A stretch of 64,000 nt of DNA from an uncultured delta proteobacterium. Its GTDB lineage: Bacteria; Myxococcota_A; Polyangia; Palsa-1104. Position 1 is the stretch's first letter. Each line of letters starts with the position of its first letter. This document shows, piece after piece, positions 7,280-62,350 of this stretch. Below the pieces are notes generated by a model, which saw only the letters and a program-made list of their open reading frames with translations, had not been told where the DNA came from and did not search any database. The stretch covers positions 875,673 through 939,672 of the forward strand of contig CAWFMP010000002.1 of NCBI GenBank assembly GCA_963816965.1, written 5' to 3'. The position numbers were made by a program, and so were the translations under genes.

Positions 7280-9907
7280 ATGGGCAACGCCTCGCACAAC
7301 TTCTACGAAGTCCTCGGGATCGATCGCGCCGCCGACGAGCGGGCGATCAAGAAGGCCTACTTCGCGCTGGTGCGCAAGTTCCCGCCGGAGACGCACCCCG
7401 AGGAGTTCCAGCGCATCCGCGAAGCGTACGAGGTGTTGGCCAATCCGCACTCGCGCGCCGACTACGACGCGGTCAACCAGTACGATCAGTACGGCGCCGA
7501 GGTCTCGGCGCACCTGAAGGCCGGCACCGAGGCGATGGAGCACGGCGACTGGCCGCGCGCGCAGGCGGAGCTGATCGCGGTGCTCGAGCAGCAGCCGCAG
7601 CTGCACTTCGCGCGCGACCTGCTCGGCATGGCCTACCTGAACGCGCACCGCCCGGCGGACGCGATGCGCGAGTTCAAGCGGCTCGTCGAGGCCGAGGCGG
7701 GCAACCCCGTCTATCACCTGCACCAGGGCTACGCCCATTATGCGCAGAACCAATACGCGCCTGCGCTCGACTGCTATCGAGAGGCGCGCAAGCTCGACCC
7801 GTCGGACACGCGCTCGCTCGTCGCCACCGCCGACTGCCTGGTGGCGCAGAAGCAGTACGAGCCGGCGCTGTTGGAGCTCGACCGCGCCATCGGGCTCGAC
7901 GGGCAGGTCGACTTCAACGACTTCGTGTTCTTCATGCGCAAGGTGCAGATCCAGCTCCTGCGCGACCGCGGCGATCTCGCCGAGCAGGAGCTCGATCAGA
8001 TCTTCAAGATCCTGCCCGACGACGCCGAGACCAAGAAGTACGTGGCCACGCGCCTGGCGTCGCTGGCGTCGGATCTGTTCGCCATGAAGCGCTCGGCCGA
8101 CGCCAACCGCCTGCTCGGGCGCTGCCGCAAGCTCGACCCTTCGCGCAAGTCGATGGAGTACACCTTCCCCGCGCGCACCAGGCTGCGCATCGACGCGCTG
8201 CCGGAGGCGTCGCGCAAGTGGCTGGCCAGGCGCGCCACCGAGCCGGGGCCGGGCAAGCTCAAGCACAACGCCAAGGCGGGGCCGGTGCTGCTCTTGCTGC
8301 TCGCCATCGGCGTGCAGCTCGCCGCGCTCAACGCCGGGTTCAACACCCGGCGCGCCTGGGACGGCGAGGAGCGCGCCCTCATGTTCCTGCTCCTCGTCGC
8401 GGCGCCGCTGCTCTTCGCGCTGGCGCTGCGGCGCATGCGCCGCGTCTCGCGCTCTCCCTACGGCAAGTACACGGCGCTGCATCCCTGCCACCTGTTGCAG
8501 GTGGAGATCGACCGGCTGACGGTGTGGCCGTTGGTCAACCTGCACGACGTGTCGCTCACGCACCACTCGACCAACGGCGTCTACTCGCACACCATGTGCC
8601 GGCTCAACTTCGCCGGCACCGTTTGCAACATCACCATCCGCGGGCAGCAGGCGGCGGTCGATTGGGCCAACCTCGTGCTCGAGCAGCGGCGCAAGGTGCT
8701 CGACCTCATGAGCGTGGGGCTGCTCGAGGCCGAGGAGGGCTTCGACCTGGTGCCGCCGGCGTTGCTGCAGCCGGGCAAGGCGGGGCCGCCGGCGCCGAAG
8801 GACCCGTCGGCGCGCAAGTGGTACCTCGTGGCCGCCGGCCTCGGGGTGGTCATGTTCTCCGCCGCCGTCCCGCTCAACGTCGGCGCCGCCGAGCGCTACG
8901 CCTGGACCTCGGTGTCGCGCTATCCGACCCTGCCCGGGTACCGCGACTACATCGCCGCCTTCCCGTCGGGCGCACACGCCTCCGAGGCCAGGCTGCGCAT
9001 CGACGAGGCGTACGAGCGCGCCATCGCGCAGTACCAGGCGCGCGCGGGCTCGACCTCGGCGGGCTCGAGGGCGATCGTGGCCGTCCTGCACGCGCTGGAG
9101 GCGGCGGGCGGTCCGGCGGTCAACGTCACCTACGCGCCGCAGATCGACTTCAGCGCCGTCCGCGCCTTCCCCGATCGGGGGATCATCGACGCCGAGCCGG
9201 CGTTCACGCCCGCGCAGAACAAGGCGCGCGAGCACAGCATCACCTCGGCCCTGCGCGAGGCGTTCGGCAACGTCGTCGGCTACGACGTCCTCGACTTCGA
9301 CGACGGCGTCTCCTCGTACGCGTACGACTACGAGAATCGGCGGCCGCACGCGCGCACCAGGGGGCCGATCACCTTCGCCATCCAATATCGGGTCGGGCCG
9401 TCGGGCACGGTCTACGAGTCGACCACGGGCACGGCGCGCAAGTTCTACGGCATCCTGTTCGACTGGCAGCTCGCCATCACCGACGAGAAGGGTGTGGAGC
9501 TGTACAAGACGCAGCTGTCCTCGGCGCCGGCCAAGAACATCCGCTACACGACCAGCGGCTACGTGCCGAGCGACATCCTGCCCTACACGAAGATGGCGGA
9601 GTCGGCGTTCAGCGAGTTCGGGCGCAAGCTGGCGGGGGACTTCGGCATCAGCATTGCCAAGCCGGCCGACGCCGATTTCGCCGACGATGCGCCGCCGCCG
9701 CCGCCGCCGTCGGCTGCCACGACGGCGTCGCTGCCGGCTTCGCCGCCGACCGCGGCGGCGCCCGCGCCGCCTTCGCGCGCCGCCATCCCGGGCTACAGCC
9801 CCGAGCTGCAGAAGGCGCTCGACGACATCGCCAGGCACGGTCGGATGTCGGACGAAACGCGGCGCCTGCTGCTCGACCTGCAGAACAAGCAGCGACCGCA
9901 GCGGTGA
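7280..9907 (+). CDS. J-domain (DnaJ-like) co-chaperone with TPR repeats, three predicted TM helices and Pro-rich C-terminal region
   Basis: J domain NFYEVLGIDRAADERAIKKAYFALVRKFPPETHPEEFQRIREAYEVL with HPE in place of canonical HPD; AAGGA SD 6 nt before ATG 7280 (alternative GTG 7265 overlaps upstream stop); hydrophobic segments at aa ~335-400 and ~520. Confidence 0.85.
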   Translation: MGNASHNFYEVLGIDRAADERAIKKAYFALVRKFPPETHPEEFQRIREAYEVLANPHSRADYDAVNQYDQYGAEVSAHLKAGTEAMEHGDWPRAQAELIAVLEQQPQLHFARDLLGMAYLNAHRPADAMREFKRLVEAEAGNPVYHLHQGYAHYAQNQYAPALDCYREARKLDPSDTRSLVATADCLVAQKQYEPALLELDRAIGLDGQVDFNDFVFFMRKVQIQLLRDRGDLAEQELDQIFKILPDDAETKKYVATRLASLASDLFAMKRSADANRLLGRCRKLDPSRKSMEYTFPARTRLRIDALPEASRKWLARRATEPGPGKLKHNAKAGPVLLLLLAIGVQLAALNAGFNTRRAWDGEERALMFLLLVAAPLLFALALRRMRRVSRSPYGKYTALHPCHLLQVEIDRLTVWPLVNLHDVSLTHHSTNGVYSHTMCRLNFAGTVCNITIRGQQAAVDWANLVLEQRRKVLDLMSVGLLEAEEGFDLVPPALLQPGKAGPPAPKDPSARKWYLVAAGLGVVMFSAAVPLNVGAAERYAWTSVSRYPTLPGYRDYIAAFPSGAHASEARLRIDEAYERAIAQYQARAGSTSAGSRAIVAVLHALEAAGGPAVNVTYAPQIDFSAVRAFPDRGIIDAEPAFTPAQNKAREHSITSALREAFGNVVGYDVLDFDDGVSSYAYDYENRRPHARTRGPITFAIQYRVGPSGTVYESTTGTARKFYGILFDWQLAITDEKGVELYKTQLSSAPAKNIRYTTSGYVPSDILPYTKMAESAFSEFGRKLAGDFGISIAKPADADFADDAPPPPPPSAATTASLPASPPTAAAPAPPSRAAIPGYSPELQKALDDIARHGRMSDETRRLLLDLQNKQRPQR

Positions 9908-10392
9908 CCGCGAGGCTCCTCGTCGTCGGCAACTCCGGCTCGGGGAAGTCGAGCTACGCCCGGCGCGTGGCCACGGCCGGCGGCGCCACCTACCTCGCGC
10001 TCGACTCGATCGTGTGGGAGCCGCACCAGATCGGCGTCGAACGGCCGCAGGCGGACGTGCGCGCCGATCTGGCGGCGTTCCTCGCCGCCCACGAGCGCTG
10101 GGTCATCGAGGGGTGCTACGGCGAGCTCATCGCGTGCGCGCTTCCGGCCTGCTCCCGGCTGCTGTTCCTGAATCCGGGGCTGGCCGCGTGCCTGGCCAAC
10201 AATCGGCGCCGGCCGTGGGAGCCGCACAAGTACGACTCGCCGGACGATCAGGCGCGCCTGCTGCCGAACCTGCAGGCCTGGGTCGAGAGCTACTACACGC
10301 GCACGGACCCATGGTCGTACGCGTACCATCGGCGGCTGTTCGACGGCTTCGACGGCGACAAGCGCGAGATCCGCGACCTCGGCGAGCTCTAG
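9904..10392 (+). CDS. small P-loop NTPase / nucleotide kinase-like protein
   Basis: 162 aa; Walker A LLVVGNSGSGKSS; GTG start overlaps J-protein stop (GTGA); last gene of the coupled operon. Confidence 0.75.
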   Translation: MTARLLVVGNSGSGKSSYARRVATAGGATYLALDSIVWEPHQIGVERPQADVRADLAAFLAAHERWVIEGCYGELIACALPACSRLLFLNPGLAACLANNRRRPWEPHKYDSPDDQARLLPNLQAWVESYYTRTDPWSYAYHRRLFDGFDGDKREIRDLGEL

Positions 10393-10558
10393 CAGGGTGT
10401 TGAAGAACTCGCTCCGCGTCGCCGCGCTTGGTCTTTTCGGCAATCGCTTCGTTGCTCCTCGGTCAGTTCCCGAAGGGGAGCTTCCCTCGTCGCGCCTCGC
10501 GCTTCGCGAAAATCCACGTCGCGCGGCTCGGTCCGGAGTTCTTCAACACCCTGCTAGG
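10389..10558. repeat. MITE-like element B1 with perfect 22-bp terminal inverted repeats (CTAGCAGGGTGTTGAAGAACTC)
   Basis: 170 bp; begins on the stop codon of the P-loop gene; internal GC-rich stem; could double as terminator. Confidence 0.7.
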
Positions 10559-10650
10559 CTCTGACGATTCATCACATCTCGGTTCGAGCTCTACGAAGGG
10601 TTCGGCCTTCAAACCGCGTCGCATCGAGAGCGCGCCAAAACGCCACCTCC

Positions 10651-10768
10651 GGCCCCACGCACGCTGCCCCGCTGAGCTCGAACAGTCCTCGCCACCGGAC
10701 TGCTGTGCTCGATTCTGCCCCTTGCCTGTGCTGCGGAACTCGCCCAGCGGGGCAGTGTGCGTGGGGCC
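10651..10768. repeat. family A MITE-like element, copy 2
   Basis: Same 27-bp TIR architecture with a few substitutions. Confidence 0.8.
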
Positions 10769-10970
10769 TCAGTGCTCGCGTGAAAGCCCAGACCCGCTGC
10801 TGCAGCTTCGTCCGGGTCCCTGGACGCCGTTTTCCCAAGAGCCCATAGAGCGGGCGGTCGTCGGCGCCGTCTTGACGGGCGTCGAGGAGCGCTCGTCGCG
10901 AAGCGACGTTGCCGGCGACGAGTCCGAGGGCCCGGACGTGCCGCCGGCCTGTAAGGCCGCCGGCGTAGCG

Positions 10971-11041
10971 GCCCCTCGGCGCCAACCGGCGACACCGCTC
11001 CCGCCCGCGGCCCCTCGGCGCCAACCGGCGACACCGCTCCC
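10971..11041. repeat. direct tandem repeat, 39-bp unit x ~1.8 (GCCCCTCGGCGCCAACCGGCGACACCGCTCCCGCCCGCG)
   Basis: Seen directly in the sequence; non-coding region. Confidence 0.7.
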
Positions 11042-11117
11042 CATGGCGTGGCGTTTGGGCGCGATCACGAGGCGACGCGGTTCGTTCAATCAAATGCGGA
11101 GACGTGATGAATCGTGA

Positions 11118-11319
11118 GAGCTCTAACCCCAGGGTTCGCTTCGATTGACCTGCTGCGGACGATCCGCGCGGTCGCCTCGAGGACTACGTCCTCGCTCCCT
11201 CGGTCGAAATACCGACGGGTATTCCTCGGTCGGTTGCTCCGGTCGCATCCACGATCCGCCTCACGCGGCTGGCCCTCGCCAGCTCAACCGAAGCGAACCC
11301 TGGGGTTAGGCTAGAGCTC
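11118..11319. repeat. MITE-like element B2 with ~26-bp terminal inverted repeats (GAGCTCTAACCCCAGGGTTCGCTTCG)
   Basis: ~200 bp; abuts stop codon of the GNAT gene; shares the GAGCTCTA/TAGGCT end motif with B1. Confidence 0.7.
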
Positions 11320-11808
11320 CTCGCGGAGGATGCCGAAGAGCCACTCGTCGACGAAGCGGCCGCGCTTGCGCACGGCGCGGCGGATGGTGCCCTCGAGCGT
11401 GAAGCGGTTCTTCTCGAAGACGCGGCGCGAGGCGACGTTGCCGACGAAGACGGTGGCCTCGAGCTTGGCCAGGCCGACGCGCTCGAACGCAAAGCGCGTC
11501 GCCAGGCGCACGGCTTCGGTGCCGTAACCGCGGCCGTGGTGCGCATGGCCGATCCACAAGCCCATGTCGCCGCGGAAGTCGTTCTCGGGCCGCACGTCGA
11601 GCGTGCCCACGGGCTCGTCGCCGGCGACGATGGCGAACATGTGCAACTCGCCGCGCGCGACCCTGCTCGAGCGATCGCCGATCGCCTCCCGAAAGTCGTC
11701 GAGCGACTCGGGGCCGTCCCACTGGAGCGTGTCGGAAACGTCGGTGCCGGCGACCAGCGGGTAGAGCCGGTCAGCGTCTTCGGCGCGGATGGGGCGCAGG
11801 GTAATCAC
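11311..11808 (-). CDS. GNAT family N-acetyltransferase (RimJ/RimL-like)
   Basis: 165 aa; acetyl-CoA-binding motif region HHGRGYGTEAVRLATRFAFE. Confidence 0.85.
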   Translation of the reverse strand: MITLRPIRAEDADRLYPLVAGTDVSDTLQWDGPESLDDFREAIGDRSSRVARGELHMFAIVAGDEPVGTLDVRPENDFRGDMGLWIGHAHHGRGYGTEAVRLATRFAFERVGLAKLEATVFVGNVASRRVFEKNRFTLEGTIRRAVRKRGRFVDEWLFGILREEL

Positions 11809-11863: not shown

Positions 11864-13053
<1,190 letters not shown>

Positions 13054-14463
13054 CGTTCGCTTCCTAGGCGCGCTTCGCGCCAGGTACTCGATGAGATCGA
13101 TCTTGGTGATGACGCCGACGAGATCGTCGCGCTCGAGCACGCACACCAGCTTGGCGTCGTTGAAGATGTTCTTGCAGCAGCTGGATCTTGGTCTGCGGCG
13201 TCACCGTCGCGTAGTCGGCCTCGACCAGATCGTCGATCGGCGACGTCCAGTCGACCCCGGCTGCGTCGAGCAGGTAGTTCGAGCAGATCGATCTCGCGTC
13301 ACCAGGCCCGACAGGCGCCCGCTGCTCCAGCACCGGCATCTGCGAGATGCCGTGCTCCTTGAGCAGGCCGATCACCGTCGCGCAGCGTGTCGCCGCGCTT
13401 GGCGGTGATGATGCGCGCGCTGCGTGCTTCGTGCGCGAGCAGGTCGCGCACCGTGCCCAGCGGATCCTCCTCGTCGAGGAAGCCGTTCTCGCGCATCCAC
13501 TCGTCGTCGAAGATCTTCGACAGGTACTTCTGCGCCGCAGTCGGGCAGGAGCACCAGGATGTTCTTCTTGTCGTCGCCGAGCTGCTCGGCGTACTTGATG
13601 GCGCCCGCCACCGCCGCGCCGCACGAGCCGCCGCAGAACAGCCCCTCCTGCGCGCACCAGCTCGCGCGTCATGCAGGAAGCACTCCTTGTCGTCGACGCG
13701 CATGATCTCGTCGATGATCTTGAGGTTCATCGTCGCCGGGCAGGAAGTCCTCGCCGATGCCCTCGACGTAGTAGGTGAACGGCTTGGTCATGCGGCCGGT
13801 CTTGACGTACTCGTAGTAGAGCGAGCCGATCGGATCGACGCCCACCACCTGGAAGCCCGGCTTCTTCTCCTTGAAGTAGCTTGCCGCAGCCCGAGATCGT
13901 GCCGCCGGTGCCCATGCCGGCGACGAAGACGTCGATCTCGCCGCCGGTCTGCTCCCAGATCTCCGGGCGCCGTCGAGACGTAGTGCGCCTCGGGGTTGGC
14001 CGGGTTGTGGTACTGGTTCGCGTGGAACGAGTTCGGCGTCTCCTCGACGAGCCGCTTGGTCACCTCGTAGTAGCTGCGCGGATCCTCGGGCTCGACGGCG
14101 GTCGGGCAGATGACCACCTTGGCGCCGAACGCGCGCAGGCCGGCGATCTTCTCGTTCGACATCTTGTCGGGCATGACGAAGATGCACTTGTAGCCGCGCA
14201 TCGCGGCCACCAGCGCCAGCCCGACGCCGGTGTTGCCGCTGACGTCGCCTCGACGATCGTGCCGCCCGGCCCGAGCAGCCCGCGCCGCTCGGCGTCGCGG
14301 ACGATGTTGCATCGCCACGCGGTCCTTCATCGAGCCGCCCGGGTTCAGGTACTCGAGCTTGACGTAGATGTCGCTCTTGACGTGCGCGGCGACCTTGTTG
14401 AGCTTGACGATCGGCGTGTGAGCCGATGGCGTCGAGGACGGTGGCGCGAGCGCCTTTCATCAT
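13054..14463 (-). pseudogene. cystathionine beta-synthase (PLP domain + CBS pair), reading frame broken several times
   Basis: [101 protein letters not shown] and C-terminal CBS-domain segment [15 protein letters not shown] lie in alternating frames; two compensating shifts only ~80 nt apart near 14200-14290. Confidence 0.7.
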
Positions 14464-24046: not shown

Positions 24047-24230
24047 GGCCCCGCGCGCGCTGCCCCGCTGGGCTCAAACAGTCCTCGCCACCGGGACGTT
24101 GTGCTCGATTCCACCCCTTGCCGGTGCTGCGGAACTCGCCCCGCGGGGCAGCGCGCGCGGGGCCGGCCGTGCTCGCCTTGGGGGTGGGAACTCGCCCCGC
24201 GGGGCAGCGCGCGCGGGGCCGGCCGTGCTC
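24047..24230. repeat. family A MITE-like element, copy 3, with a tandem partial duplication of its right end
   Basis: Right-hand 45 bp (GGGAACTCGCCCCGCGGGGCAGCGCGCGCGGGGCCGGCCGTGCTCG) repeated twice. Confidence 0.8.
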
Positions 24231-24288
24231 GTCTTGGGGGTGGCGTCGTTTCTGCGGCGAGACACGCAGCGCTGGATTGGCGCGCCGG

Positions 24289-49799: not shown

Positions 49800-50000
49800 T
49801 CCTAAGGGCAATGCGGTTCACAGTCGGCGGGTCAACCGGCCGGCGTGGGCCGCGGAGGTCGTGAGGCGCCTGGTGCTACGTCGAAGTCGCGCCTGTCCAT
49901 CGCAGCAGGCGTCGAGCGGAGGCAGCGCCCCTTGCTACCTCCGCGGCCCAAGCCGGCCCGCTACGACTCGGCCAAAGTGAACGGCATTGGTCCTGAGGGC
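49800..50000. repeat. dispersed repeat family C, copy 1
   Basis: Shares GGGCCGCGGAGGTCGTGAGGCGCC and GGTACTACGTCGAAGTCGCGCCTGT blocks and AATGCCGTTCAC-type ends with 61920-62150. Confidence 0.65.
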
Positions 50001-50029: not shown

Positions 50030-52792
50030 ATGGAGCGCATCTCGCACTATCGGCTGGTGGCGAGGCTGGGCAGGGGCGCGATGGGCGAGGTGTGGCGCGC
50101 CGTCGACGAGCGCCTCGGCCGCGCCGTGGCGCTCAAGCTCCTGCCGGTGGCGCGCGCCTCCGAGCAGAAGATGCAGGCCCGCCTGCTGCGCGAGGCGCAA
50201 GCGGCGAGCGCGCTCAATCACCCGGGCATCGTCACCGTGCACGACGTCGGCTCGTGGCACGGGCAGATCTTCATGGTCATGGAGCTGGTCGACGGCGAGC
50301 CGCTGTCGGAGCTGGCGCGGAGCGGCCTGGCGCCGGCGGAGGCGCTGCGCCTGTGCGCCGACGCGGCCGAGGCGTTGGCCACGGCCCACGAGCGCGAGAT
50401 CCTGCACCGCGACATCAAGAGCGACAACCTCATGCGCACGCGCGACGGGCGCATCAAGGTGCTCGACTTCGGCCTGGCGAAGCTGCGCGCGCAGCCGGAG
50501 GCGAGCGCGGCGCCGGAGCAGCCGCCGGGCGGCGTGCCCGGGGTGGCCGAGCTGGCGGCGGTGGCGGAGACGCTCGACTCGACGTCGCGATCGGGCGGGC
50601 CGTCGACGCCGCCGACCGATCCGGACGCGCTCGGCAAGCTGCGCGGCGAGGAGGCGGCGCAGCCTTTTCCGCCGCTGTCGGCGTCGTCGCCGGCGGAGAG
50701 CCTGACGATGGCCGGCGCGCTGGTCGGCACGCCGGTGTACATGTCGCCCGAGCAGACCGACGGCACGCCCGGGGACGCGCAGTCCGAGGTGTGGTCGCTC
50801 GGCGTCGTCCTGTACGAGCTGCTCGTGGGCAAGCGGCCGTTCGAGCGGGCGTCGATCCCCGAGGTGTTGCAGGCGATCCGCTCGCAGCACCTGGTGCGAC
50901 CGTCGCTGGCGGCGCCGGCGCGGGCGATTCCGGCGCGGCTCGACGCGGTGGTGCTCAAGGCGCTGGCGCGCGATCGCAAGCAGCGCTACGCCGACATGCG
51001 CGCGTTCGCCGCGGCCCTCCGAGCGGCGCGCCGGCGGCTCGCGGGCGCGGACACCGGCGGCGAGCCCGTGATCCGCCCCCGGCGGCGGCTGCTCGTAGCC
51101 GCCGCGGGCGCGCTCGCGCTTCTGGGGACGCTCGGCGGCTACGCGCTCTTCGGCCGCCATCCGCCGCCGCCGCCACCGCTGCCGCTCGTGCTGGCGGCGC
51201 CCAAGGTCGAGCCGTCGCTGGTGACCGTGAGCGGCACGCGCCGCATCACCTTCAACGCCGGTTGCGAGGAGTACCCGAGCTTCACGCCCGACGGGCGGAC
51301 CATCGTCTTCGACGGCGTGATGGAGAACGACTACGAGCTGGGCGCGCTCGACCTCGCCTCCGGCACCACCCGGCGCCTGACGCACGAGCCGGGCTGGGAC
51401 TACGGCGGCGCCGTGTCGCCCGACGGCCGCTGGATCGCCTACGTGCACACCTCCGATTCCGGACGCGAGATCCGGGTCCTGCCGATCGAGGGCGATCGCG
51501 GCGGGGCGCCCCGCCGGCTCGGGCTGAGCTCGTCCGGCTTTCCATCGTGGACGCGCGACGGCGCCGTGATCGTCGGCGAGGGCGACCAGATCTTGCGCTG
51601 GACGCTCGACGCGCACGGCGCGCGCAGCCAGACCATCGCGCGCTTGCCGGCCGGCGCCGTCGATCGCTACGTCGCCCAATTCTCCGACGGCAACCTGGTG
51701 GCGCTGTGGCAGCCGCAGTACGCGGCGAACGTGGTCGTCGTCGGCGAGCTGGCGCTCGGCCGGGCGGCGCGCGCCGTCGAGACGCTGCCGCTGGACTCGA
51801 TCGGGCTCATCGTCGCGCCGTCGCAGGCGGGCTATTTCTACGGGCGTCACCACGCCAACGCCAACGAGCTGGTGCGGCGGCGCTTCGGCGGGGCGGCGGA
51901 GACGGTGCCGGGCGATGTCACGCCGGCCAGCGGCCTCAGCATCTCGCCCGACGGCAAGCGGCTGGCGTACTCGACCTGTCGGGAGTCGGGCGTGATCGCG
52001 CGCTTGCGGCCGGGCCGCCCGCCCGAGCAGTTGATGACCGCGGGGAACTGGCGCGACATCTGGCCGGCGCCGGTCGACGATCGGCGCGTCCTGTTCGAGA
52101 GCGATCGCGCGGGCGTGGTGCAGGTCTGGCTGCTCGACGTCAAGTCGCGCGAGGCGCGGCCGCTGGCCGCGGCGTCGTCGTCGCACCCGGGCGTGTCGCC
52201 TGACGGCAAGTGGCTCGCCTACAGCGGCGGCGACGAGCCGGGCATCCACGTGATGGCGCTGAGCGGCGGCGCCGTGACGCGCGTGACCAGCGACGCCGCC
52301 GACGGCGAGCCGCAGTTCAGCTTCGACGGCAAGACCATCGTCTTCGAATCGACGCGCGAGCGCGGCGGCGCGCGCGTCTACGCCGTCGCTGCCGCCGGGG
52401 GCCCGGTGCGCGCGCTGTCGCCCGTCGGCGCGCTGTCGCCGGCGGCGTCGCCGACGGAGGATCGGGTGGTCTTCGTGCTCCCGACCGAGCGCGGGCGGGT
52501 GGTCATGTCGACGACGCTCGAGGGGCGTGCGCCGGTGCCGCTGATCCCCTCGCTGGCGGCGGGCGATTGGCTCAATCCACGCTTCTCGCGCGACGGCAGG
52601 AAGCTGCTCGTGGTGCGCAAGACCGCCGAGGTCGTCGAGGTCGAGCTGAGGACGGGCGCCGCGCGCGTCGTCTATCGCGCCGGGCTCGAAGGCATCGGCG
52701 AGGCCACCTACGCGCCCGACGGCTACGGCCTCATCGCCTCGGTACAGCTATGGAACGGCGACCTCTGGCTCGCCGACGGCACCTTCCGCTAG
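50030..52792 (+). CDS. Ser/Thr protein kinase with TM segment and C-terminal TolB-like beta-propeller repeats
   Basis: 920 aa; kinase subdomains (GRGAMGEVW, HRDIKSDN, DFGLAK, SPEQ); hydrophobic helix ~aa 360; repeated SPDG[KR] propeller motifs. Confidence 0.9.
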   Translation: MERISHYRLVARLGRGAMGEVWRAVDERLGRAVALKLLPVARASEQKMQARLLREAQAASALNHPGIVTVHDVGSWHGQIFMVMELVDGEPLSELARSGLAPAEALRLCADAAEALATAHEREILHRDIKSDNLMRTRDGRIKVLDFGLAKLRAQPEASAAPEQPPGGVPGVAELAAVAETLDSTSRSGGPSTPPTDPDALGKLRGEEAAQPFPPLSASSPAESLTMAGALVGTPVYMSPEQTDGTPGDAQSEVWSLGVVLYELLVGKRPFERASIPEVLQAIRSQHLVRPSLAAPARAIPARLDAVVLKALARDRKQRYADMRAFAAALRAARRRLAGADTGGEPVIRPRRRLLVAAAGALALLGTLGGYALFGRHPPPPPPLPLVLAAPKVEPSLVTVSGTRRITFNAGCEEYPSFTPDGRTIVFDGVMENDYELGALDLASGTTRRLTHEPGWDYGGAVSPDGRWIAYVHTSDSGREIRVLPIEGDRGGAPRRLGLSSSGFPSWTRDGAVIVGEGDQILRWTLDAHGARSQTIARLPAGAVDRYVAQFSDGNLVALWQPQYAANVVVVGELALGRAARAVETLPLDSIGLIVAPSQAGYFYGRHHANANELVRRRFGGAAETVPGDVTPASGLSISPDGKRLAYSTCRESGVIARLRPGRPPEQLMTAGNWRDIWPAPVDDRRVLFESDRAGVVQVWLLDVKSREARPLAAASSSHPGVSPDGKWLAYSGGDEPGIHVMALSGGAVTRVTSDAADGEPQFSFDGKTIVFESTRERGGARVYAVAAAGGPVRALSPVGALSPAASPTEDRVVFVLPTERGRVVMSTTLEGRAPVPLIPSLAAGDWLNPRFSRDGRKLLVVRKTAEVVEVELRTGAARVVYRAGLEGIGEATYAPDGYGLIASVQLWNGDLWLADGTFR

Positions 52793-52815
52793 GGGTGTCG
52801 GACCCCCCCCTAGCC

Positions 52816-57058: not shown

Positions 57059-58370
57059 GCTCCCGACGCTGGTCGTCTGGTTCGGCGTCGTGTCGCTTCT
57101 GACCGACGTCGGCACCGAGATGATCTATCCGCTGCTGCCGCTCTTCCTCTCCAACGTGCTGCACGCGCCGCGCACCTTCATCGGCGCCGTCGAGGGCGCG
57201 GCGGAGGCGACCGCGTCGCTGCTCAAGCTGGTCTCGGGACGGCTGAGCGATCGCCTGCGCCGCCGCAAGCCGCTCACGGTGGCCGGCTACGGGCTGTCGT
57301 CGCTGGTGCGGCCCCTGGTGGGGCTGGCGACCCATCCGTGGCACGTGCTGGCCACGCGGGTCGCCGATCGGGTGGGCAAGGGCGTGCGCTCGAGCCCGCG
57401 CGACGCGCTGCTCGCCGACGCCACCGACCCGGCGCAGCGCGGGCGCGCCTACGGCTTTCACCAGGCGATGGACAACGCCGGCGCGCTCGTCGGCCCGCTG
57501 GTCGCCACCGCGCTGCTGGCCGTCGGCTTCGAGATGCGCAGCGTCTTCTTCTTCGCCGCCGTTCCGGGCGCGCTGGCGATGGGTGCGCTCATCTTCGGCG
57601 TGCGCGAAGAGCCGCGCAGCGGCAGCGAGGTCGCCCGGGCCAAGGCGCGCAGCGCGGCGCCCTTCAGCCCGACGCTGAGCCGCTACCTCGTGTGCGTCGC
57701 GCTCTTCGGCCTCGGCAACTCGTCCGACGCCTTTCTATTGTTGCGCGGCCAGCAGGTCGGCGTCCCCGTCAAATGGATCCCGCTTCTGTGGATGGCGCAC
57801 AACGGCACCAAGGCGGCGCTGTCGACCTGGGCGGGCGGGCTCTCCGATCGCATCGGCCGCCGCCGCGTCATCATCGCCGGCTGGACGCTCTACGCGGCCA
57901 CCTACCTCGCCTTCGGCTTCGCGTCGCACGCGTGGCAGATCTGGGCGCTGTTCGTCGTGTACGGCGTCTACTACGCGTTCGTCGAGGGTACCGAGAAGGC
58001 GCTGGTCGCCGACCTGGTGCCCGCTGGCGCGCGCGGCCGCGCCTTCGGTTGGTTCAACGCGGTCGTCGGCCTGGCGGCGCTGCCGGCTTCGCTGGCATTC
58101 GGTGCGCTCGCCGATCGCTTCGGCGCGCGCGTCGCGTTCACGGTGTCGGCTTCGCTGGCGGCGGCGGCGAGCTTGTGGCTGCTGCTGCTGGTGCGGCCGC
58201 CGCGGAGGGCGCCGCCTTCGGGGGCGTTGTCGGCGCAGGAGCCGGCTTCGGGAGCGCCGGCTTCGGGAGCGCAGCCTTCGGAGGCGTCCCCGGCGGTGGA
58301 GGCGCCTTCGGGGGCGCCGTCGTCGGCGGCGCTGTCGCCGGAGGTGCCGTCGCCGGAGGTGCCGTCATAG
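57045..58370 (+). CDS. MFS transporter with Ser/Pro/Ala-rich C-terminal tail
   Basis: 441 aa; 12 TM helices; tail encoded by tandem GGAGG[CT]G[CT]CGTCG repeats that continue past the stop. Confidence 0.8.
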
Positions 58371-59244
58371 GAGGCGTCGTCGTCGGAGGTGCCGTCGTCG
58401 GAGGCGTCGTCGCCGGAGGTGCCGTCGTCGGAGGCGTCGTCGCCGGAGGCGTCGTCGCCGGAGGCGTCGCCGCCGGCTCGCTGATGTCGATCTGCGGCAG
58501 CTCGTCGATGCGCGGCATCACCACCACCTCGATGCGCCGGTTGAGCGTGCGCCCCTCGGGCGTATCGTTGGTGGCGAGCGGATCGAACTCCGAGTAGCCG
58601 GCCGCCGCCAGCCGCCGCGGATCGACGCCTTCGCCCTGCAGAAAGCGCACGACCGTGACCGCGCGCGCCGTCGACAGCTCCCAGTTCGACGCGTACGGCG
58701 AGCTCTTGATCGGACGATTGTCGGTGTGCCCGGCGACGAGGAAGTCGCGATCGGCGATCTCCTTGAGCGCTTGCGCCACCTCCTTGAGCGCACGCTCGCC
58801 GTCCGGCTTGAGCGTGGCCTGCCCGGGATCGAAGAGGATCGCGTCGCCGAGCTTGACCAGCATCTTGCCCTTGCGCACCTCGACCGCCAGCGTGCCGGCG
58901 CCGATGGCGTCGCGCAGCCGCGCCACCAGCGTCCGGTAGAGCTCGTTGCGCTGCTCGGCCTGCGCGTGCGCCCGGCGCAGCGCGTCCATCTCGTGCTGCG
59001 TGGCCTGCAGGTTGTTGGCGAGCTTGGACGCGTCGGCGCGCTGGCGCGCGATCTCGTCGTCGCGCTCGTCGCGATCCTTGCGCAGCTGATCTTCGCGCGC
59101 GTGCGAGGCGCCGAGCTGGTTCTGCGCCTGCCCGAGCTCGGCCTGGCACTTCTCGACCTCGGTCACGCGCGTGTTGTACTCGGCCTGCGAGACACCGCAG
59201 CCGGCGGCGCAGGCGAGGAGTAGGGCGCAAAGTCGAAGCGGCAC
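58138..59244 (-). CDS. OmpA-family lipoprotein (coiled coil + OmpA C-like domain + Pro/Thr-rich tail)
   Basis: Lipobox LLACAAGCG; VAGHTDNRPIKSSPYASNWELSTARAVTVVRFL; PATTPP repeats; 3' end overlaps MFS gene convergently within the repeat tract. Confidence 0.8.
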   Translation of the reverse strand: MPLRLCALLLACAAGCGVSQAEYNTRVTEVEKCQAELGQAQNQLGASHAREDQLRKDRDERDDEIARQRADASKLANNLQATQHEMDALRRAHAQAEQRNELYRTLVARLRDAIGAGTLAVEVRKGKMLVKLGDAILFDPGQATLKPDGERALKEVAQALKEIADRDFLVAGHTDNRPIKSSPYASNWELSTARAVTVVRFLQGEGVDPRRLAAAGYSEFDPLATNDTPEGRTLNRRIEVVVMPRIDELPQIDISEPAATPPATTPPATTPPTTAPPATTPPTTAPPTTTPPMTAPPATAPPATAPPTTAPPKAPPPPGTPPKAALPKPALPKPAPAPTTPPKAAPSAAAAPAAAATSSPPPPAKPTP

Positions 59245-59311: not shown

Positions 59312-61918
59312 ATGGGTTCTCGGTCTGAGCGTGCTCTTGGGTCGACGTCAACGGGGTCGCGCGGGCGGGAAGTGGCGGGGATCGTCCTACTTGGCCTGGC
59401 GATCTTCGTCGGCCTCAGCGTCGCGTCGCTGCAGCTCGGCTCCGGCACGCTGATGGGTCCGTGCGGCGCCACCGTCGGGCTCGGCGTCTACGCGCTGATC
59501 GGTGTCGGCGCCTATCTGGCGGCGCTCGGCCTCGGCTTCGCGGCGCTGCGCTGCCTGCAGGGGCAGCCGGTGCGCGTCAAGTCGATCGGCTTCTGGGCCG
59601 CGCTGGGCAGCGGCATCTCGGCGGCCATCTTGCTGCACCTGGCGCTCGGCACCCATCGCCTGCGCGGCCACTCGCCGGGCGGTGCGCTCGGCGAATACGG
59701 GGCGGAGCTGCTCATCGCCTTCGTCGGGCGGGTCGGCGCCGCGCTGGTCGGCGTCGTCCTGCTGGCGGTGTCGCTGGTGCTGTCGACGTCGCTGTCGTTC
59801 CGCACCATCCCCTCGCTGCTGATGGCCGCCGGCCGCGGCGCGCTCGGCGTCTTGACCCGGGGGCTGCAGCTCATCTTCCCGGCGCACGACGAAGATGAGG
59901 ACGAGAGCGAGGTCGAGGTCGAGGCCCGGCCGCCGAAGAAGCTGCGCGGCAAGAAGGAAGAGGACGCCACCGTCGCCGAGGAGGGCGTGGAGGTCGACGA
60001 GGCCGACATCCTCGCCGCCGAGCAGGCGCTCGACGCCATGGCCAAGCTCAAGCGCAAGCAGCGCAAGCGCGACGACGAGCCGCAGGTGATCCGACTGCCG
60101 CAGGTCGGGGCCAGCGCGGCCGAGCTCGGCAACGCGCCGATGGAGATCATCGACAACGAGAAGACCGAGATCAGCAGCTCGGGGGCGCCGGTGCCCGACG
60201 AGCTGGGGCCGAAGATCGTCGAGCCGCTGGCGCTCAAGAAGAAGGAGCTGGCGCAGAAGGTGCCGGAGGCGCCCAAGCCCGACTTCATCCCCGCGGCCGG
60301 CGGCTACCACCTGCCGGACACCTCGCTGCTCGACTACGAGGAGTCGCACGACGACAAGCTCGACAAGGGCGCGATGCTGGCGCTGGCCGAGAAGCTGCAA
60401 AAGACGCTCGCCGACTACGGCGTCAAGGGCAACGTGGCGGAGATCCACCCCGGGCCCGTCGTCACGATGTACGAGTTCGTGCCGGCGCCGGGGACCAAGC
60501 TGTCGAAGATCTCGGCGCTGTCGAACGACCTGGCGATGTCGCTGGAGGCGCTGCGCGTGCGCATCGTGGCGCCGATCCCGGGCAAGGGCGTCGGTCGGCA
60601 TCGAGGTGCCGAACAAGACGCGCGCGACGGTGTACCTGAAGGAGATGCTCGTCGACGAGCACGTGCAGAAGGCCAAGTCGAAGCTGACCATCGGCCTCGG
60701 CAAGGACATCGCCGGGCGCGCCGGTCGCCGTCGACCTGGCGAAGATGCCGCACCTGCTCGTCGCCGGCACCACCGGCTCGGGCAAGTCGGTCGCGGTCAA
60801 CGGCATGATCTGCTCGCATCCTCTTCAACTGCGACGCCCGAAGAGGTGCGCATGATCATGATCGACCCGAAGATGGTCGAGCTGTCGATCTACGAGGGCA
60901 TTCCGCACCTGCTGCTGCCGGTGGTGACCGATCCGAAGAAGGCGAACCTGGCGCTGCGCTGGGCCGTCGACGAGATGGAGCGGCGCTACGAGCTGGTCGT
61001 CGAAGTCGGGCGTGCGCGACATCCTCGCCTACAACAAGAAGATCGAGAAGCTGCTCGCCGACGGGCCGCTCAAGCCCGAGTCGAAGAAGATCAAGATCTA
61101 CGTCGAGGGCGACGACGGGCAGAAGAGCGAGGTCGAGGTCGTCGGCCAACGAAGCGGCGGTGCGCGAGGCCGGCGGCGTCGTCGACGCCGAGGTGCGCGA
61201 CGAGATCTCGGCGGCCCACGCGGCCATGCAGAAGGCTGCAGCAGACGCGCCGCCGCCGCCGCGCAAGCTGCCCTACATCGTCGTCATCATCGACGAGTTC
61301 GCCGACCTGATGATGGTGGCGCCCAAGGACGTCGAGACCTCGGTGGCGCGCATCGCGCAGAAGGCGCGCGCCGTCGGCATCCACCTGCTCCTGGCGACGC
61401 AGCGGCCGTCGGTGGACGTGATCACCGGGCTCATCAAGGCCAACTTCCCGTCGCGCATCGCGTTCCAGGTGGCGTCGAAGATCGACTCGCGCACCATCCT
61501 CGATCAGCAGGGCGCCGAGAACCTGCTCGGCATGGGCGACATGCTGTTCACCGATCGCGGGCAGGCGCTGCGCCGCGTGCACGGCGCGCTCGTCACCGAC
61601 GTCGAGATCAAGCGCATGGTCGACTTCCTCAAGCTCCAGGGGCAGCCGGTCTACGACATGGACATCCTGAAGCCGCGCGTCGACGAAGAGGGCGACGGCG
61701 AGGGCGGCGGCTTGCCCGAAGAGGGCGACGATCCGCTCTACGACCAGGCGGTACGGCTGGTGTGCGAGACGCGCATGGCCTCGGTGTCGATGATCCAGCG
61801 CCGCTTGCAGATCGGCTTCAACCGCGCCTCCCGCCTGGTCGAGCGCATGGAGCGCGACGGCATCGTCGGCGCCCCCAACGGCTCCAAGCCCCGCGAAGTC
61901 CTCGCCCAGGCGATCTAG
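59312..61918 (+). CDS. ftsK: DNA translocase FtsK/SpoIIIE (reading frame broken ~5 times between 60590 and 61150)
   Basis: N-terminal TM helices, acidic linker, then FtsK motor segments ([99 protein letters not shown]) and gamma domain ([21 protein letters not shown]) found across alternating frames. Confidence 0.85.
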
Positions 61919-61919
61919 C

Positions 61920-62150
61920 CCCGATGCCGTTCACTTTCGGCGGGTAGTAGCGGGCCGGCCTGGGCCGCGGAGGTCGTGAGGCGCCATCCCGGCGTCGGAA
62001 GCCGGCGCAGTCGCCGCCGCTTCGGGGCGGCGTGCGCCTCCATCGGGCCGCTCGAGGTCGCGCTGCGCGTTACGCGGCCCTCTACGCCGCCGGGAGGGCG
62101 CCTCACGACCTCCGCTCACGGGCGCCTGGTACTACGTCGAAGTCGCGCCT
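61920..62150. repeat. repeat family C, copy 2, carrying a ~110-bp internal insertion with its own inverted repeat
   Basis: GCGGAGGTCGTGAGGCGCC ... GGCGCCTCACGACCTCCGC inverted pair flanks the extra segment absent from copy 1. Confidence 0.6.
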
Positions 62151-62330
62151 GTGCTGCGGAGCTCGCCCAGCGGGGCAGAGCGCACGGGGCCTCTGTGCAA
62201 CCCAAGCGGGCGCAAACTGAAGACCTGAACCGGGGAGGCGATCGGGCTGGCAGGCAAGGGGTCGAATCGAGCACAGCGGTCCGCTGGTGAGGACTGTTTG
62301 AGCCGAGCGGGGCAGAGCGTGCGGGGCCGG
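62150..62330. repeat. family A MITE-like element, copy 5 (rearranged: right-end fragment + inverted copy with ~50-bp insertion)
   Basis: GTGCTGCGGAGCTCGCCCAGCGGGGCAG... followed by inverted CAGGCAAGGGGTCGAATCGAGCACAGCGG...GACTGTTTGAGCCGAGCGGGGCAGAGCGTGCGGGGCC. Confidence 0.7.
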
Positions 62331-62350
62331 ACGTGCCCTGCCCGGAGCGC

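What the first reader, a model, noticed from the sequence alone, without database searches (positions are those of the whole stretch)
10389..11319. About 0.9-kb non-coding island packed with three different inverted-repeat (MITE-like) elements and a 39-bp tandem repeat
Between the operon's last gene and the convergent GNAT gene there is no credible ORF. The interval instead contains element B1 (170 bp, perfect 22-bp TIRs, starting on the stop codon), a family-A element, a 39-bp direct repeat and element B2 (~200 bp, ~26-bp TIRs, ending on the GNAT stop codon). B1 and B2 share GAGCTCTA and TAGGCT end motifs, suggesting a common transposition machinery or target. Such dense clustering marks a recombination or insertion hotspot. 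It may also supply terminators for both convergent transcription units.
Basis: seen in the sequence. Interest (0 to 1): 0.6.

Follow-up and report, generated by a model that had tools for sequence, protein, structure and literature searches.

The report
Mobile-repeat pile-up between convergent genes
A 0.9-kb gene-free gap in an uncultured high-GC, myxobacterium-like genome holds at least five small hairpin-forming repeat elements, one of them a miniature IS5-type transposon sitting exactly on a stop codon; this is an ordinary kind of bacterial insertion hotspot.

Summary
Window 10393-11310 lies between a kinase-like gene and a convergent GNAT gene. It has no coding signal and is built almost wholly of inverted-repeat modules.

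B1 is a genuine MITE. Its 19-nt ends, GCAGGGTGTTGAAGAACTC, are the terminal repeats of 1.3-1.5-kb IS5-family insertion sequences, and of other short elements, in several phyla. These ends are always flanked by TA, mostly within CTAG. In 10 of 17 public ends, and at B1's left end, the flanking TA plus the element's G forms a gene's TAG stop codon.

Family A is a dispersed 133-nt hairpin repeat, with 7 copies in 84 kb of this genome.

- The "spacer" is another dispersed repeat, family M. Its right arm carries the 39-bp duplication.
- An outer inverted repeat, "C", encloses A and M.

B2 has one 80 %-identical relative in another metagenomic contig and is distantly similar to B1. The C arms remain orphans.

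B1 and B2 sit in the same 12-nt site, GAGCTC-TA-GGCT. The likely history is serial insertion into rare CTAG sites at gene ends. No canonical terminator, promoter or Rfam RNA is present.

Verdict: new members of known kinds, of modest interest.

The parts
9904..10392 (+). Kinase-like gene (P-loop, AAA_33 / shikimate-kinase-like, 162 aa). It is the last gene of the HSP70-Lon/TPR-DnaJ operon. Its TAG stop at 10390-10392 lies inside CTAG.
   Evidence: Gene call in L001.
10389..10557 (.). B1, a MITE with IS5-family terminal repeats. The element proper is 10392-10554 (163 bp, GCAGGG...CCCTGC). It is flanked by TA at 10390-91 and 10555-56, each within CTAG. The left TA plus the element's first G forms the gene's stop codon.
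   Evidence: Arms; fold -91.8 kcal/mol, z -8.65. The same 19-22-nt end occurs on IS5-family insertion sequences and on other MITEs.
10557..10585 (.). Outer-left arm of inverted repeat 'C' (GGCTCTGACGATTCATCACATCTC...). It pairs with 11095-11123.
   Evidence: I5 (23 nt, 91 %); alignment. No other copy was found.
10586..10611 (+). Insert present only in the left C arm: GAGCTC-TA-CGAAGGGTTCGG. It looks like a solo B2-type end at a third GAGCTC-TA junction.
   Evidence: GAGCTCTA-N1-6-AGGGT occurs 3 times in the window, all in the island (0 expected). AGGGTTCG occurs only here and in the two B2 ends.
10612..10646 (.). Inner-left arm of 'C'. It pairs with 11048-11082. Part of it also precedes the family-A copy in L075.
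   Evidence: I2 (35 nt, 89 %). Window 10615-10643 matches L075 9689-9717 at 90 %.
10643..10775 (+). Family A copy: a 133-nt hairpin repeat with 27-35-nt GC-rich arms and a conserved 64-nt loop.
   Evidence: Five copies in the window and two in L075. Fold z -7.47. Four stem pairs show compensatory changes.
10793..11019 (+). Family M copy: a dispersed palindromic repeat that folds into a Y shape. Its right arm is degenerate here.
   Evidence: 79-83 % identity over about 230 nt to L075 9962-10185 and L076 10179-10408; the core is 86-92 % identical. Consensus fold has 5 compensatory pairs.
10968..11041 (+). 39-bp tandem duplication (two perfect 35-nt copies), lying where the right arm of the M copy should be.
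   Evidence: D1; comparison with the other M copies.
11048..11082 (.). Inner-right arm of 'C'.
   Evidence: I2.
11095..11123 (.). Outer-right arm of 'C', ending ...GTGAGAGCTC just before the TA at 11124-25. Base 11122 is T here and G in L001.
   Evidence: I5.
11123..11309 (.). B2, a near whole-length palindrome. The element proper is 11126-11306 (ACCCCAGGG...CCCTGGGGT). It is flanked by TA at 11124-25 and 11307-08.
   Evidence: I1; fold -109.1 kcal/mol, z -7.05. A second copy lies at L077 10152-10311, 80 % over 161 nt, with its left boundary also at a TA. Distant similarity to B1.
11311..11808 (-). GNAT acetyltransferase gene (165 aa). Its stop codon, CTA at 11311-11313, lies inside a third CTAG.
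   Evidence: Pfam Acetyltransf_3, E 1.6e-24; gene call.

Best explanation
The gap is a graveyard and landing pad for non-autonomous repeat elements. It is not a gene and not a known RNA locus.

**Proposed history**
- The two convergent genes probably once ended 1 nt apart, as ...GAGCTC-TAG-G-CTA-GAGCTC....
- In this 71 % GC genome the tetranucleotide CTAG is about six-fold under-represented. About half of the surviving sites are TAG stop codons.
- IS5-type transposases insert at Py-TA-Pu, mostly CTAG. Gene ends are therefore almost the only targets, and insertions there are harmless.
- Step 1 (inferred): an element with the C arms, now enclosing a family A-family M composite, entered the TA at the kinase gene's stop codon. 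Its termini are G(A)GCTC...GAGCTC, so both new junctions again read GAGCTC-TA-GGCT.
- Step 2: B1 entered the left junction and B2 the right one. That B1 is an IS5-type MITE is shown; the order of events is inferred.
- B1's termini (G...C) re-create both the TAG stop codon and a CTAG on each side, so the gene stays intact and the site stays targetable.
- Later decay added the 39-bp tandem duplication in M's right arm and a solo B2-like end in the left C arm.

**Effect**
Any present function is most likely a by-product. Very stable hairpins sit directly after two convergent genes and could impede read-through or 3' exonucleases. This was not tested.
For: **Non-coding**
- Codon-position GC spread is 0.02-0.25, against 0.40-0.58 in the flanking genes.
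- No Pfam hit, no called gene, no Rfam family.

**B1 is an IS5-type MITE**
- The exact 19-mer end found 63 stretches of DNA (64 matches) in the species-representative genomes.
- 17 of those 64 matches are preceded by TA. None of the other 47, which lie in coding sequence, is.
- The TA-flanked ends belong to two kinds of element. Some are 97-277-bp elements with the inverted partner ...TTCAACAnCCTGC-TA (L006, L007, L026, L028, L033, L047, L049, L051, L059). Others are 1276-1512-bp elements (L030, L039, L055).
- The L039 ORF is an IS5-family transposase: NCBIfam NF033581 at 262 bits against a cut-off of 140, plus Pfam DUF772 and DDE_Tnp_1.
- IS5 duplicates Py-TA-Pu, most often CTAG (PMC5493358).
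- MITEPsy1 is a proven IS5-derived MITE with the same target (PMC3189936).

**Stop-codon landing**
- In 10 of the 17 public ends, the flanking TA plus the element's G is the in-frame TAG of a 177-632-codon ORF, for example RuvB in L006 and L026. B1's left end is an eleventh case.

**CTAG scarcity**
- 14 sites against 85 expected. About half are gene stop codons.

**Same target for B1 and B2**
- Both sit in GAGCTC-TA...TA-GGCT.
- TA occurs at only 1.1 % of positions, yet it sits at all four module boundaries.

**Other modules are dispersed repeats**
- Family A has 7 copies in 84 kb.
- Family M occurs in L075 and L076, and the A-M composite recurs 357 kb away on the same chromosome.
- B2 has an 80 % copy in L077.
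- B1 against B2 gives 125 of 199 aligned columns identical. This beats all 1469 native control segments.

**Real sequence, variable spot**
- The island is present with only 2 SNPs in an independent public assembly.
- Relatives with conserved synteny carry other genes here and no island.
Against: - No empty site is available. The nearest relatives are only about 72 % identical in protein, so the order of insertions and the 1-nt ancestral spacer are reconstructions.
- TA is self-complementary. TA flanks on B2 and C therefore extend the palindromes and are not independent proof of a target-site duplication.
- The C outer arms have no second copy anywhere I could search.
- The B2 tip 19-mer gave only unrelated hits in JGI metagenomes, viral contigs and plasmids.
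- No second B1, B2 or C-arm copy and no IS5 transposase occur in the 84 kb of this genome that I could read.
- Families A and M show no target-site duplication but do show compensatory stem changes. This hints at a different mobilisation route, or at selection on structure.
- Both genes ending in GAGCTCTAG is an unexplained coincidence. In L001 one GAGCTCTA reads GAGCGCTA.
Confidence: 0.7

Rival explanations
1. The island is a BIME-like mosaic of REP-type repeats. On this reading families A, M, E and perhaps C and B2 are spread by a REP-associated tyrosine transposase or by recombination. They would be kept because their hairpins serve the cell, for example as mRNA 3' ends, transcription barriers or protein-binding sites. 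B1 would be the only classical MITE.
For: - A and M have no target-site duplication.
- Both show compensatory stem changes: 4 pairs in 4 copies of A, matched by 1 of 500 shuffles, and 5 pairs in 3 copies of M.
- They recur together as an A-M composite in another convergent gap.
- A second repeat island, with families E and A, lies at 61915-62340.
- A occurs about once per 12 kb.
Against: - No RAYT gene was seen, although none was searched for genome-wide.
- The arms lack the GTAG head of classical REPs, and the units are long (133-230 nt) with conserved loops.
- With so few copies, arm co-variation can also come from hairpin-templated repair.
- No functional data exist.
- This reading does not explain the TA boundaries or the shared 12-nt site of B1 and B2.
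Confidence: 0.3
2. One or more modules, family M or A especially, are genes for structured small RNAs or cis-regulatory RNA elements. The island would then be a cluster of RNA genes.
For: - Very stable folds.
- Compensatory changes.
- The M core is 85-92 % conserved between different metagenomic genomes.
Against: - No Rfam match, even at a permissive threshold.
- No sigma-70-like promoter or intrinsic terminator.
- Copies occur in both orientations relative to neighbouring genes, with tandem arm duplications and truncations typical of selfish repeats.
Confidence: 0.1
3. The gap is a decayed protein-coding gene, for example a second GNAT or the DUF4336 gene that relatives carry at this position. 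The palindromes would be incidental.
For: - Relatives carry DUF4336 or a small ORF at this position.
- There is a weak 28-nt, 86 % match to the GNAT gene and a 'GNVASRR' peptide match at E 0.03.
Against: - No codon-phase signal and no Pfam hit.
- tblastn with the neighbours' proteins finds nothing.
- About 85 % of the interval is accounted for by repeat modules.
Confidence: 0.03
4. The island is an assembly artefact: palindromic mis-joins from long-read metagenome assembly.
For: - The source is a metagenomic contig.
- A nearby tract (11885-14419) differs from the public copy by 34 one-base insertions.
Against: - The island is present in the separate ENA assembly with only 2 SNPs.
- The arms are imperfect (83-91 %), unlike fold-back artefacts.
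- The modules have independent copies in other loci and other genomes.
Confidence: 0.02

Closest known systems
IS5-derived MITEs, e.g. MITEPsy1 of Pseudomonas syringae (PMC3189936)
   Same: B1 is short, non-coding and carries about 18-19-nt terminal repeats identical to those of IS5-family insertion sequences. It inserts at CTAG, with CTAG present on both sides. Transposase would have to be supplied in trans.
   Different: The terminal sequence differs: GCAGGGTGTTGAAGAACTC against GGAAGGTCTGAAAAAGCC. B1 is 163 bp and GC-rich. Flanks across the family fit a 2-bp TA duplication (13 of 13 elements) at least as well as the 4-bp duplication of IS5 (9 of 13). Mobility and copy number in this genome are not shown. 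The recurrent position exactly on TAG stop codons was not described for MITEPsy1.
Clusters of BOX, RUP and SPRITE repeats in Streptococcus pneumoniae (reviewed in PMC10969869)
   Same: Several unrelated small repeat families are bunched in one intergenic region and inserted next to or into one another.
   Different: The organism, the sequences and the GC content are different. Here the boundaries coincide with TA/CTAG sites at two convergent stop codons.
REP / BIME / REPIN elements (PMC3116915, PMC3184786)
   Same: Families A and M are abundant extragenic GC-rich palindromes. They occur singly, as inverted doublets (M in L076) and in mosaics.
   Different: The units are much longer (133-230 nt) and have conserved loops. 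They lack the GTAG head, and no RAYT gene has been identified.
Correia / ERIC-type hairpin MITEs (from general knowledge)
   Same: These are whole-length foldback elements flanked by TA, lying near gene ends, and able to act as RNA structure once transcribed.
   Different: There is no sequence similarity. No terminator or RNase III role has been shown here.

Membership tests
MITE of an IS5-family insertion sequence (applies to B1) | Short element without coding capacity | tested here: met
   163 bp, no coding signal.
MITE of an IS5-family insertion sequence (applies to B1) | Terminal inverted repeats shared with an autonomous IS that encodes a transposase | tested here: met
   The same 19-22-nt end bounds 1276-1512-bp elements. 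The L039 ORF scores 262 bits on NF033581 (IS5 family; cut-off 140) and matches DUF772 and DDE_Tnp_1.
MITE of an IS5-family insertion sequence (applies to B1) | Family-typical target and duplication (Py-TA-Pu, usually CTAG) | tested here: met
   CTAG is present on both sides of B1. Across 13 two-ended relatives the flanks are TA/TA in 13 and CTAG/CTAG in 9. The IS5 target is taken from PMC5493358.
MITE of an IS5-family insertion sequence (applies to B1) | Several copies in the host genome, with a cognate transposase available in trans | not testable with these tools
   Only 84 kb of the source genome could be read. It holds no second copy and no IS5 transposase. The source genome was not among the species-representative genomes scanned.
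MITE (applies to B2) | Terminal inverted repeats, flanking duplication and copies at unrelated sites | tested here: inconclusive
   The tips pair perfectly over 21 nt and are flanked by TA. One copy at 80 % identity lies in an unrelated context, L077, and its left boundary is also at a TA. No parent IS was found, and tip searches gave only chance hits.
MITE (applies to the C outer arms) | Copies elsewhere, or a parent IS | tested here: not met
   No second copy in the window, the fetched loci, the viral scan, plasmids or the protein-level searches.
REP / REPIN (applies to families A and M) | Abundant extragenic palindromes dispersed in one genome | tested here: met
   Family A has 7 copies in 84 kb, all intergenic. 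Family M has one full copy each in the window and in L075, a fragment in L075, and two copies in L076 from another genome.
REP / REPIN (applies to families A and M) | Short REP units (about 20-35 nt) with a conserved GTAG-type head, paired in inverted orientation | tested here: not met
   The arms begin GCAC/GGCCCC, not GTAG. Family A units have a 64-nt conserved loop.
REP / REPIN (applies to families A and M) | Associated RAYT (Y1 transposase) gene | not tested
Intrinsic (Rho-independent) terminator | GC-rich hairpin followed by a T/U run | tested here: not met
   0 sites in 10200-11500 on either strand.
Any Rfam RNA family | Match at or above the gathering score | tested here: not met
   None in the window. 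The only sub-threshold match is a chance mir-330 hit at E 0.61.

The most novel reading that the evidence does not exclude
The most novel reading concerns IS5-type elements whose termini are G...C.
- Insertion at a C-TA-G stop codon re-creates the TAG stop of the host gene.
- It also re-creates a CTAG target on each side of the insert.
- In high-GC genomes, where CTAG survives almost only at stop codons, gene ends would then behave as self-renewing landing pads that grow into tandem arrays like this one.
- The co-resident families A and M, whose stems show compensatory changes, would be kept because their hairpins insulate convergent transcription units.
Probability: 0.25. Interest if true: 0.5.

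Novelty: new member of a known kind. Interest (0 to 1): 0.3.

Why it matters
- It gives a concrete, sequence-level example of how target preference (CTAG) and genome composition (71 % GC, CTAG depleted) combine to funnel transposable elements onto stop codons without damaging genes.
- It shows how one insertion can seed a cluster of further insertions.
- It documents four previously undescribed repeat families (A, M, B2 and E) in an uncultured Myxococcota-like lineage. It also documents an IS5-family terminal sequence shared from Dehalococcoidia to rhizobia.
- In practice, such islands cause spurious gene calls. P0121, P0122 and P0124 are ORFs called across M or B2 copies. The islands can also confuse assembly and annotation.
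- The finding does not reveal a new kind of system.

Tried and rejected
- **GNAT or neighbour pseudogene in the gap.** tblastn with GNAT, the kinase, DUF4336, the small ORFs and the Cys/Met enzyme gave nothing significant.
- **GAGCTCTA as a genome-wide element signature.** Rejected: the 5 sites outside the island are Glu-Leu-Tyr codons.
- **Element copies in syntenic loci of relatives.** None found.
- **Exact-end scans.** The B2 tip, the C tip and the A core gave 0 hits in viral contigs. The B2 tip in JGI metagenomes gave 3 unrelated hairpin or coding hits.
- **Plasmid BLAST.**
  - The B1 end recovered rhizobial IS ends, for example S. meliloti L073.
  - The B2 hit (Ralstonia) and the C hit (Rhizobium) were chance matches in or beside genes.
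- **Literature search for the B1 end sequence.** Only unrelated primers turned up.
- **Protein-level search with the reverse-strand ORF of the island.** No hits.
- **P0123**, a third protein matching the translated island ORF, could not be located on a contig.
- **Tandem Repeats Finder** did not report the 39-bp duplication, which has only 1.9 copies. It is nevertheless exact.
- **One giant 940-bp palindrome** was considered, because B1 and B2 lie mirror-symmetrically about position ~10845. Rejected: B1 and B2 are only about 63 % alike, whereas the C arms are about 90 % alike. Insertion at both regenerated junctions explains the symmetry.
Full report
**Setting.** The window has 70.7 % GC. Its genes and their best homologues ('Polyangia bacterium', 'Kofleriaceae bacterium') point to an uncultured Myxococcota-like organism.

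The same locus occurs on a 4.33-Mb metagenomic contig, ENA ERZ25039538 contig_11713, fetched here as L001. Over window positions 1312-21840, L001 is 99.1 % identical to the window. The island differs at only two bases: 10474 (A in the window, C in L001) and 11122 (T in the window, G in L001).

The island lies between two convergent genes:
- a 162-aa P-loop kinase-like gene at 9904-10392 on the + strand, the last gene of an HSP70-Lon/TPR-DnaJ operon;
- a 165-aa GNAT gene at 11311-11808 on the - strand.

**Check of the observation.**
- B1 (10389-10557) has 22-nt arms that are 100 % complementary.
- The family-A copy (10643-10775) has four further copies in the window.
- The direct repeat is two perfect 35-nt copies spaced 39 nt apart.
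- B2 (11123-11309) has 46-nt arms at 83 %, with the first 21 nt perfect.
- GAGCTCTA lies to the left of both B elements and TAGGCT to their right.

The modules fold far better than dinucleotide shuffles:

| Module | Free energy (kcal/mol) | z-score |
|---|---|---|
| B1 | -91.8 | -8.65 |
| B2 | -109.1 | -7.05 |
| A | -80.3 | -7.47 |
| 10558-11121 | -325.2 | -8.94 |

The interval is non-coding.
- The spread of GC content between the three codon positions is 0.02-0.25 inside the island, against 0.40-0.58 in the flanking genes.
- The 229-aa and 173-aa ORFs have no Pfam family.
- The public gene caller placed no gene there.
- There is no Rfam match.
- There is no sigma-70 promoter or intrinsic-terminator consensus.

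Three corrections apply.
- B2 stops 2 nt before the GNAT stop codon.
- The right-hand GAGCTCTA reads GAGCGCTA in L001.
- Five of the nine GAGCTCTA sites in the window are ordinary Glu-Leu-Tyr codons.

- An outer inverted repeat, 'C', encloses the middle of the island. It pairs 10557-10585 with 11095-11123 (91 %) and 10612-10646 with 11048-11082 (89 %).
- The supposedly unique 'spacer' at 10793-11019 is itself a dispersed repeat, which I call family M.

Family M was found indirectly. I used the spurious 229-aa ORF as a protein query and fetched the contigs of its hits. This gave L075, which lies 357 kb away on the same chromosome, and L076, from another metagenomic genome.
- M matches them at 79-83 % over about 230 nt. 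The core is 86-92 % identical.
- The whole segment from family A through family M recurs in L075: window 10641-11027 matches L075 9770-10185, again inside a convergent intergenic gap.
- M folds into a Y shape with a 30-bp outer stem. Five pairs show compensatory changes among only three copies.
- The 39-bp tandem duplication sits where the window copy's right arm should be.

**B1 is an IS5-family MITE.** An exact scan of one genome per species with the 19-nt end GCAGGGTGTTGAAGAACTC returned 63 stretches of DNA holding 64 matches.
- 47 matches lie in coding sequence. None of them is preceded by TA.
- The other 17 are all preceded by TA, mostly by cTA.
- Thirteen of those 17 ends have an inverted partner, ...TTCAACAnCCTGC, followed by TA.
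- The partners define short elements of 97-277 bp in uncultured 'delta proteobacterium' MAGs, a Burkholderiales MAG and an unclassified MAG (L007), whose end matches B1 at 97 % over 33 nt.
- They also define 1276-1512-bp elements in L030, L039 and L055.
- The ORF of the L039 element is an IS5-family transposase: NCBIfam NF033581 at 262 bits against a cut-off of 140, plus Pfam DUF772 and DDE_Tnp_1.
- The same end occurs on rhizobial plasmids.

[quoted passage not shown] MITEPsy1 is an experimentally mobile IS5-derived MITE with the same target (PMC3189936). B1 has CTAG on both sides. Across the relatives the flanks are TA/TA in 13 of 13 and CTAG/CTAG in 9 of 13. The duplication may therefore be 2 bp, with G...C belonging to the element.

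**Why it sits on the stop codon.** CTAG occurs 14 times in the window against 85 expected. About half of these sites are TAG stop codons of likely genes.

Among the 17 genuine element ends in public genomes, the flanking TA plus the element's first G forms the in-frame TAG of a 177-632-codon ORF in 10 cases. Examples are RuvB in L006 and L026, and a 274-aa ORF next to the full-length IS in L039. B1's left end in the window is an eleventh case.

An element with G...C termini therefore restores both the host stop codon and a CTAG on each side. This step is read directly from the sequences. Whether the pattern reflects targeting or survival of harmless insertions is not resolved.

**B2 and C.**
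- B1 and B2 lie in the same 12-nt context, GAGCTC-TA[element]TA-GGCT.
- The motif GAGCTCTA-N1-6-AGGGT occurs three times in the window, all in the island, against 0 expected.
- The third occurrence (10586) is a solo B2-like end inside the left C arm.
- TA occupies only 1.1 % of positions, yet it sits at all four module boundaries.
- B2 is not unique. A profile-free protein search with its 66-aa ORF found P0124 (E 1.2e-8). Its contig, L077, carries a copy at 80 % identity over 161 nt, and homology there also starts at a TA.
- B1 and B2 align with 125 of 199 columns identical. This is better than any of 1469 native control segments (z 5.6), which suggests distant common ancestry.
- The C outer arms have no relative in any search.

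Removing everything between the first and last TA gives ...GAC CTC GGC GAG CTC TAG G CTA GAG CTC CTC.... That is two convergent stop codons 1 nt apart. In relatives the kinase gene also abuts or overlaps its convergent neighbour, in L002 and L004, so this ancestral state is plausible. Why both genes end in GAGCTCTAG remains unexplained.

**Family A.** It has seven copies in the 84 kb of this genome that I could read, all intergenic and in both orientations. No target-site duplication is visible. Four stem pairs carry compensatory changes among four full copies, a level reached by 1 of 500 shuffles. With M and a further family E (61921-62145 and 49811-49990), it forms other repeat islands, for example 61915-62340. 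A and M may be REP/BIME-like rather than MITEs. This is the main rival for those modules and does not exclude the MITE reading of B1.

**Relatives.** Genomes with conserved synteny, about 72 % identical in the kinase protein, carry DUF4336 or a small ORF in place of GNAT. They have no island and no element copies. The junction is therefore variable, but these genomes are too distant to serve as empty sites.

**Verdict.** The gap is a non-coding insertion hotspot filled with small palindromic repeats. It is richer than described, with at least five modules. One module is now firmly assigned to the IS5 family. The shared target motif reflects insertion at CTAG/TA sites that are concentrated at stop codons. 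The terminator idea lacks sequence support. The phenomenon belongs to known kinds (IS-derived MITEs, REP-like mosaics, repeat clusters), so interest is modest.

Noticed in passing
window 11885-14419: Against the otherwise 99.9 %-identical public contig L001, this tract carries 126 substitutions and 34 extra single bases. It covers exactly the Cys/Met-metabolism PLP enzyme gene and the PALP/CBS gene. Both genes are frameshifted in the window and intact in L001. Possible causes are a pseudogenised allele, a strain mixture or a polishing artefact.
   Followed up: partly
window 61915-62340 and 49811-49990: Another palindromic repeat family, E, starts right after a CTAG stop codon at 61915-61918. 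It lies next to a split family-A copy (62147-62338). Together they form a second repeat island between convergent genes.
   Followed up: partly
window 24131-24242; L075 ~9712-9795: Family-A copies carry local tandem duplications of one arm. The right arm is duplicated (56 nt, two copies) at 24131-24242. A 28-nt fragment of the left arm is present three times in L075.
   Followed up: no
window 52788-52813: CTAGGGGTGTCGGACCCCCCCTAG is a 7-nt-armed mini-palindrome bounded by two CTAG sites. The first CTAG contains a gene's TAG stop codon. It could be a transposon footprint or a small hairpin.
   Followed up: no
L076 10054-10180 (- strand) and 10236-10399 (+ strand): Two family-M copies lie head to head in another metagenomic genome, like a REPIN-type doublet. 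The inner hairpin of M switches between GTCGC-GAA-GCGAC and CGCCC-GCA-GGGCG, which is a fully compensated stem.
   Followed up: partly
L006, L026, L028, L033, L049, L051, L059 (uncultured 'delta proteobacterium' MAGs): A family of roughly 97-185-nt composite mini-elements carries the IS5-type end. It includes a 62-nt unit and a 36-nt end-to-end hairpin (GCAGGCGTTGAAAA-TTAC-TTTTTCAACAGCCTGC). Most sit on TAG stop codons.
   Followed up: partly
window 58196-58480: A long run of 15-nt periodic, GC-rich repeats, probably coding for a low-complexity protein segment.
   Followed up: no
P0121 (L076), P0122 (L075), P0124 (L077): Public 'proteins' of 138-204 aa with no Pfam domain appear to be ORFs called across family-M or B2-type repeat copies. 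They are probably spurious gene predictions.
   Followed up: partly
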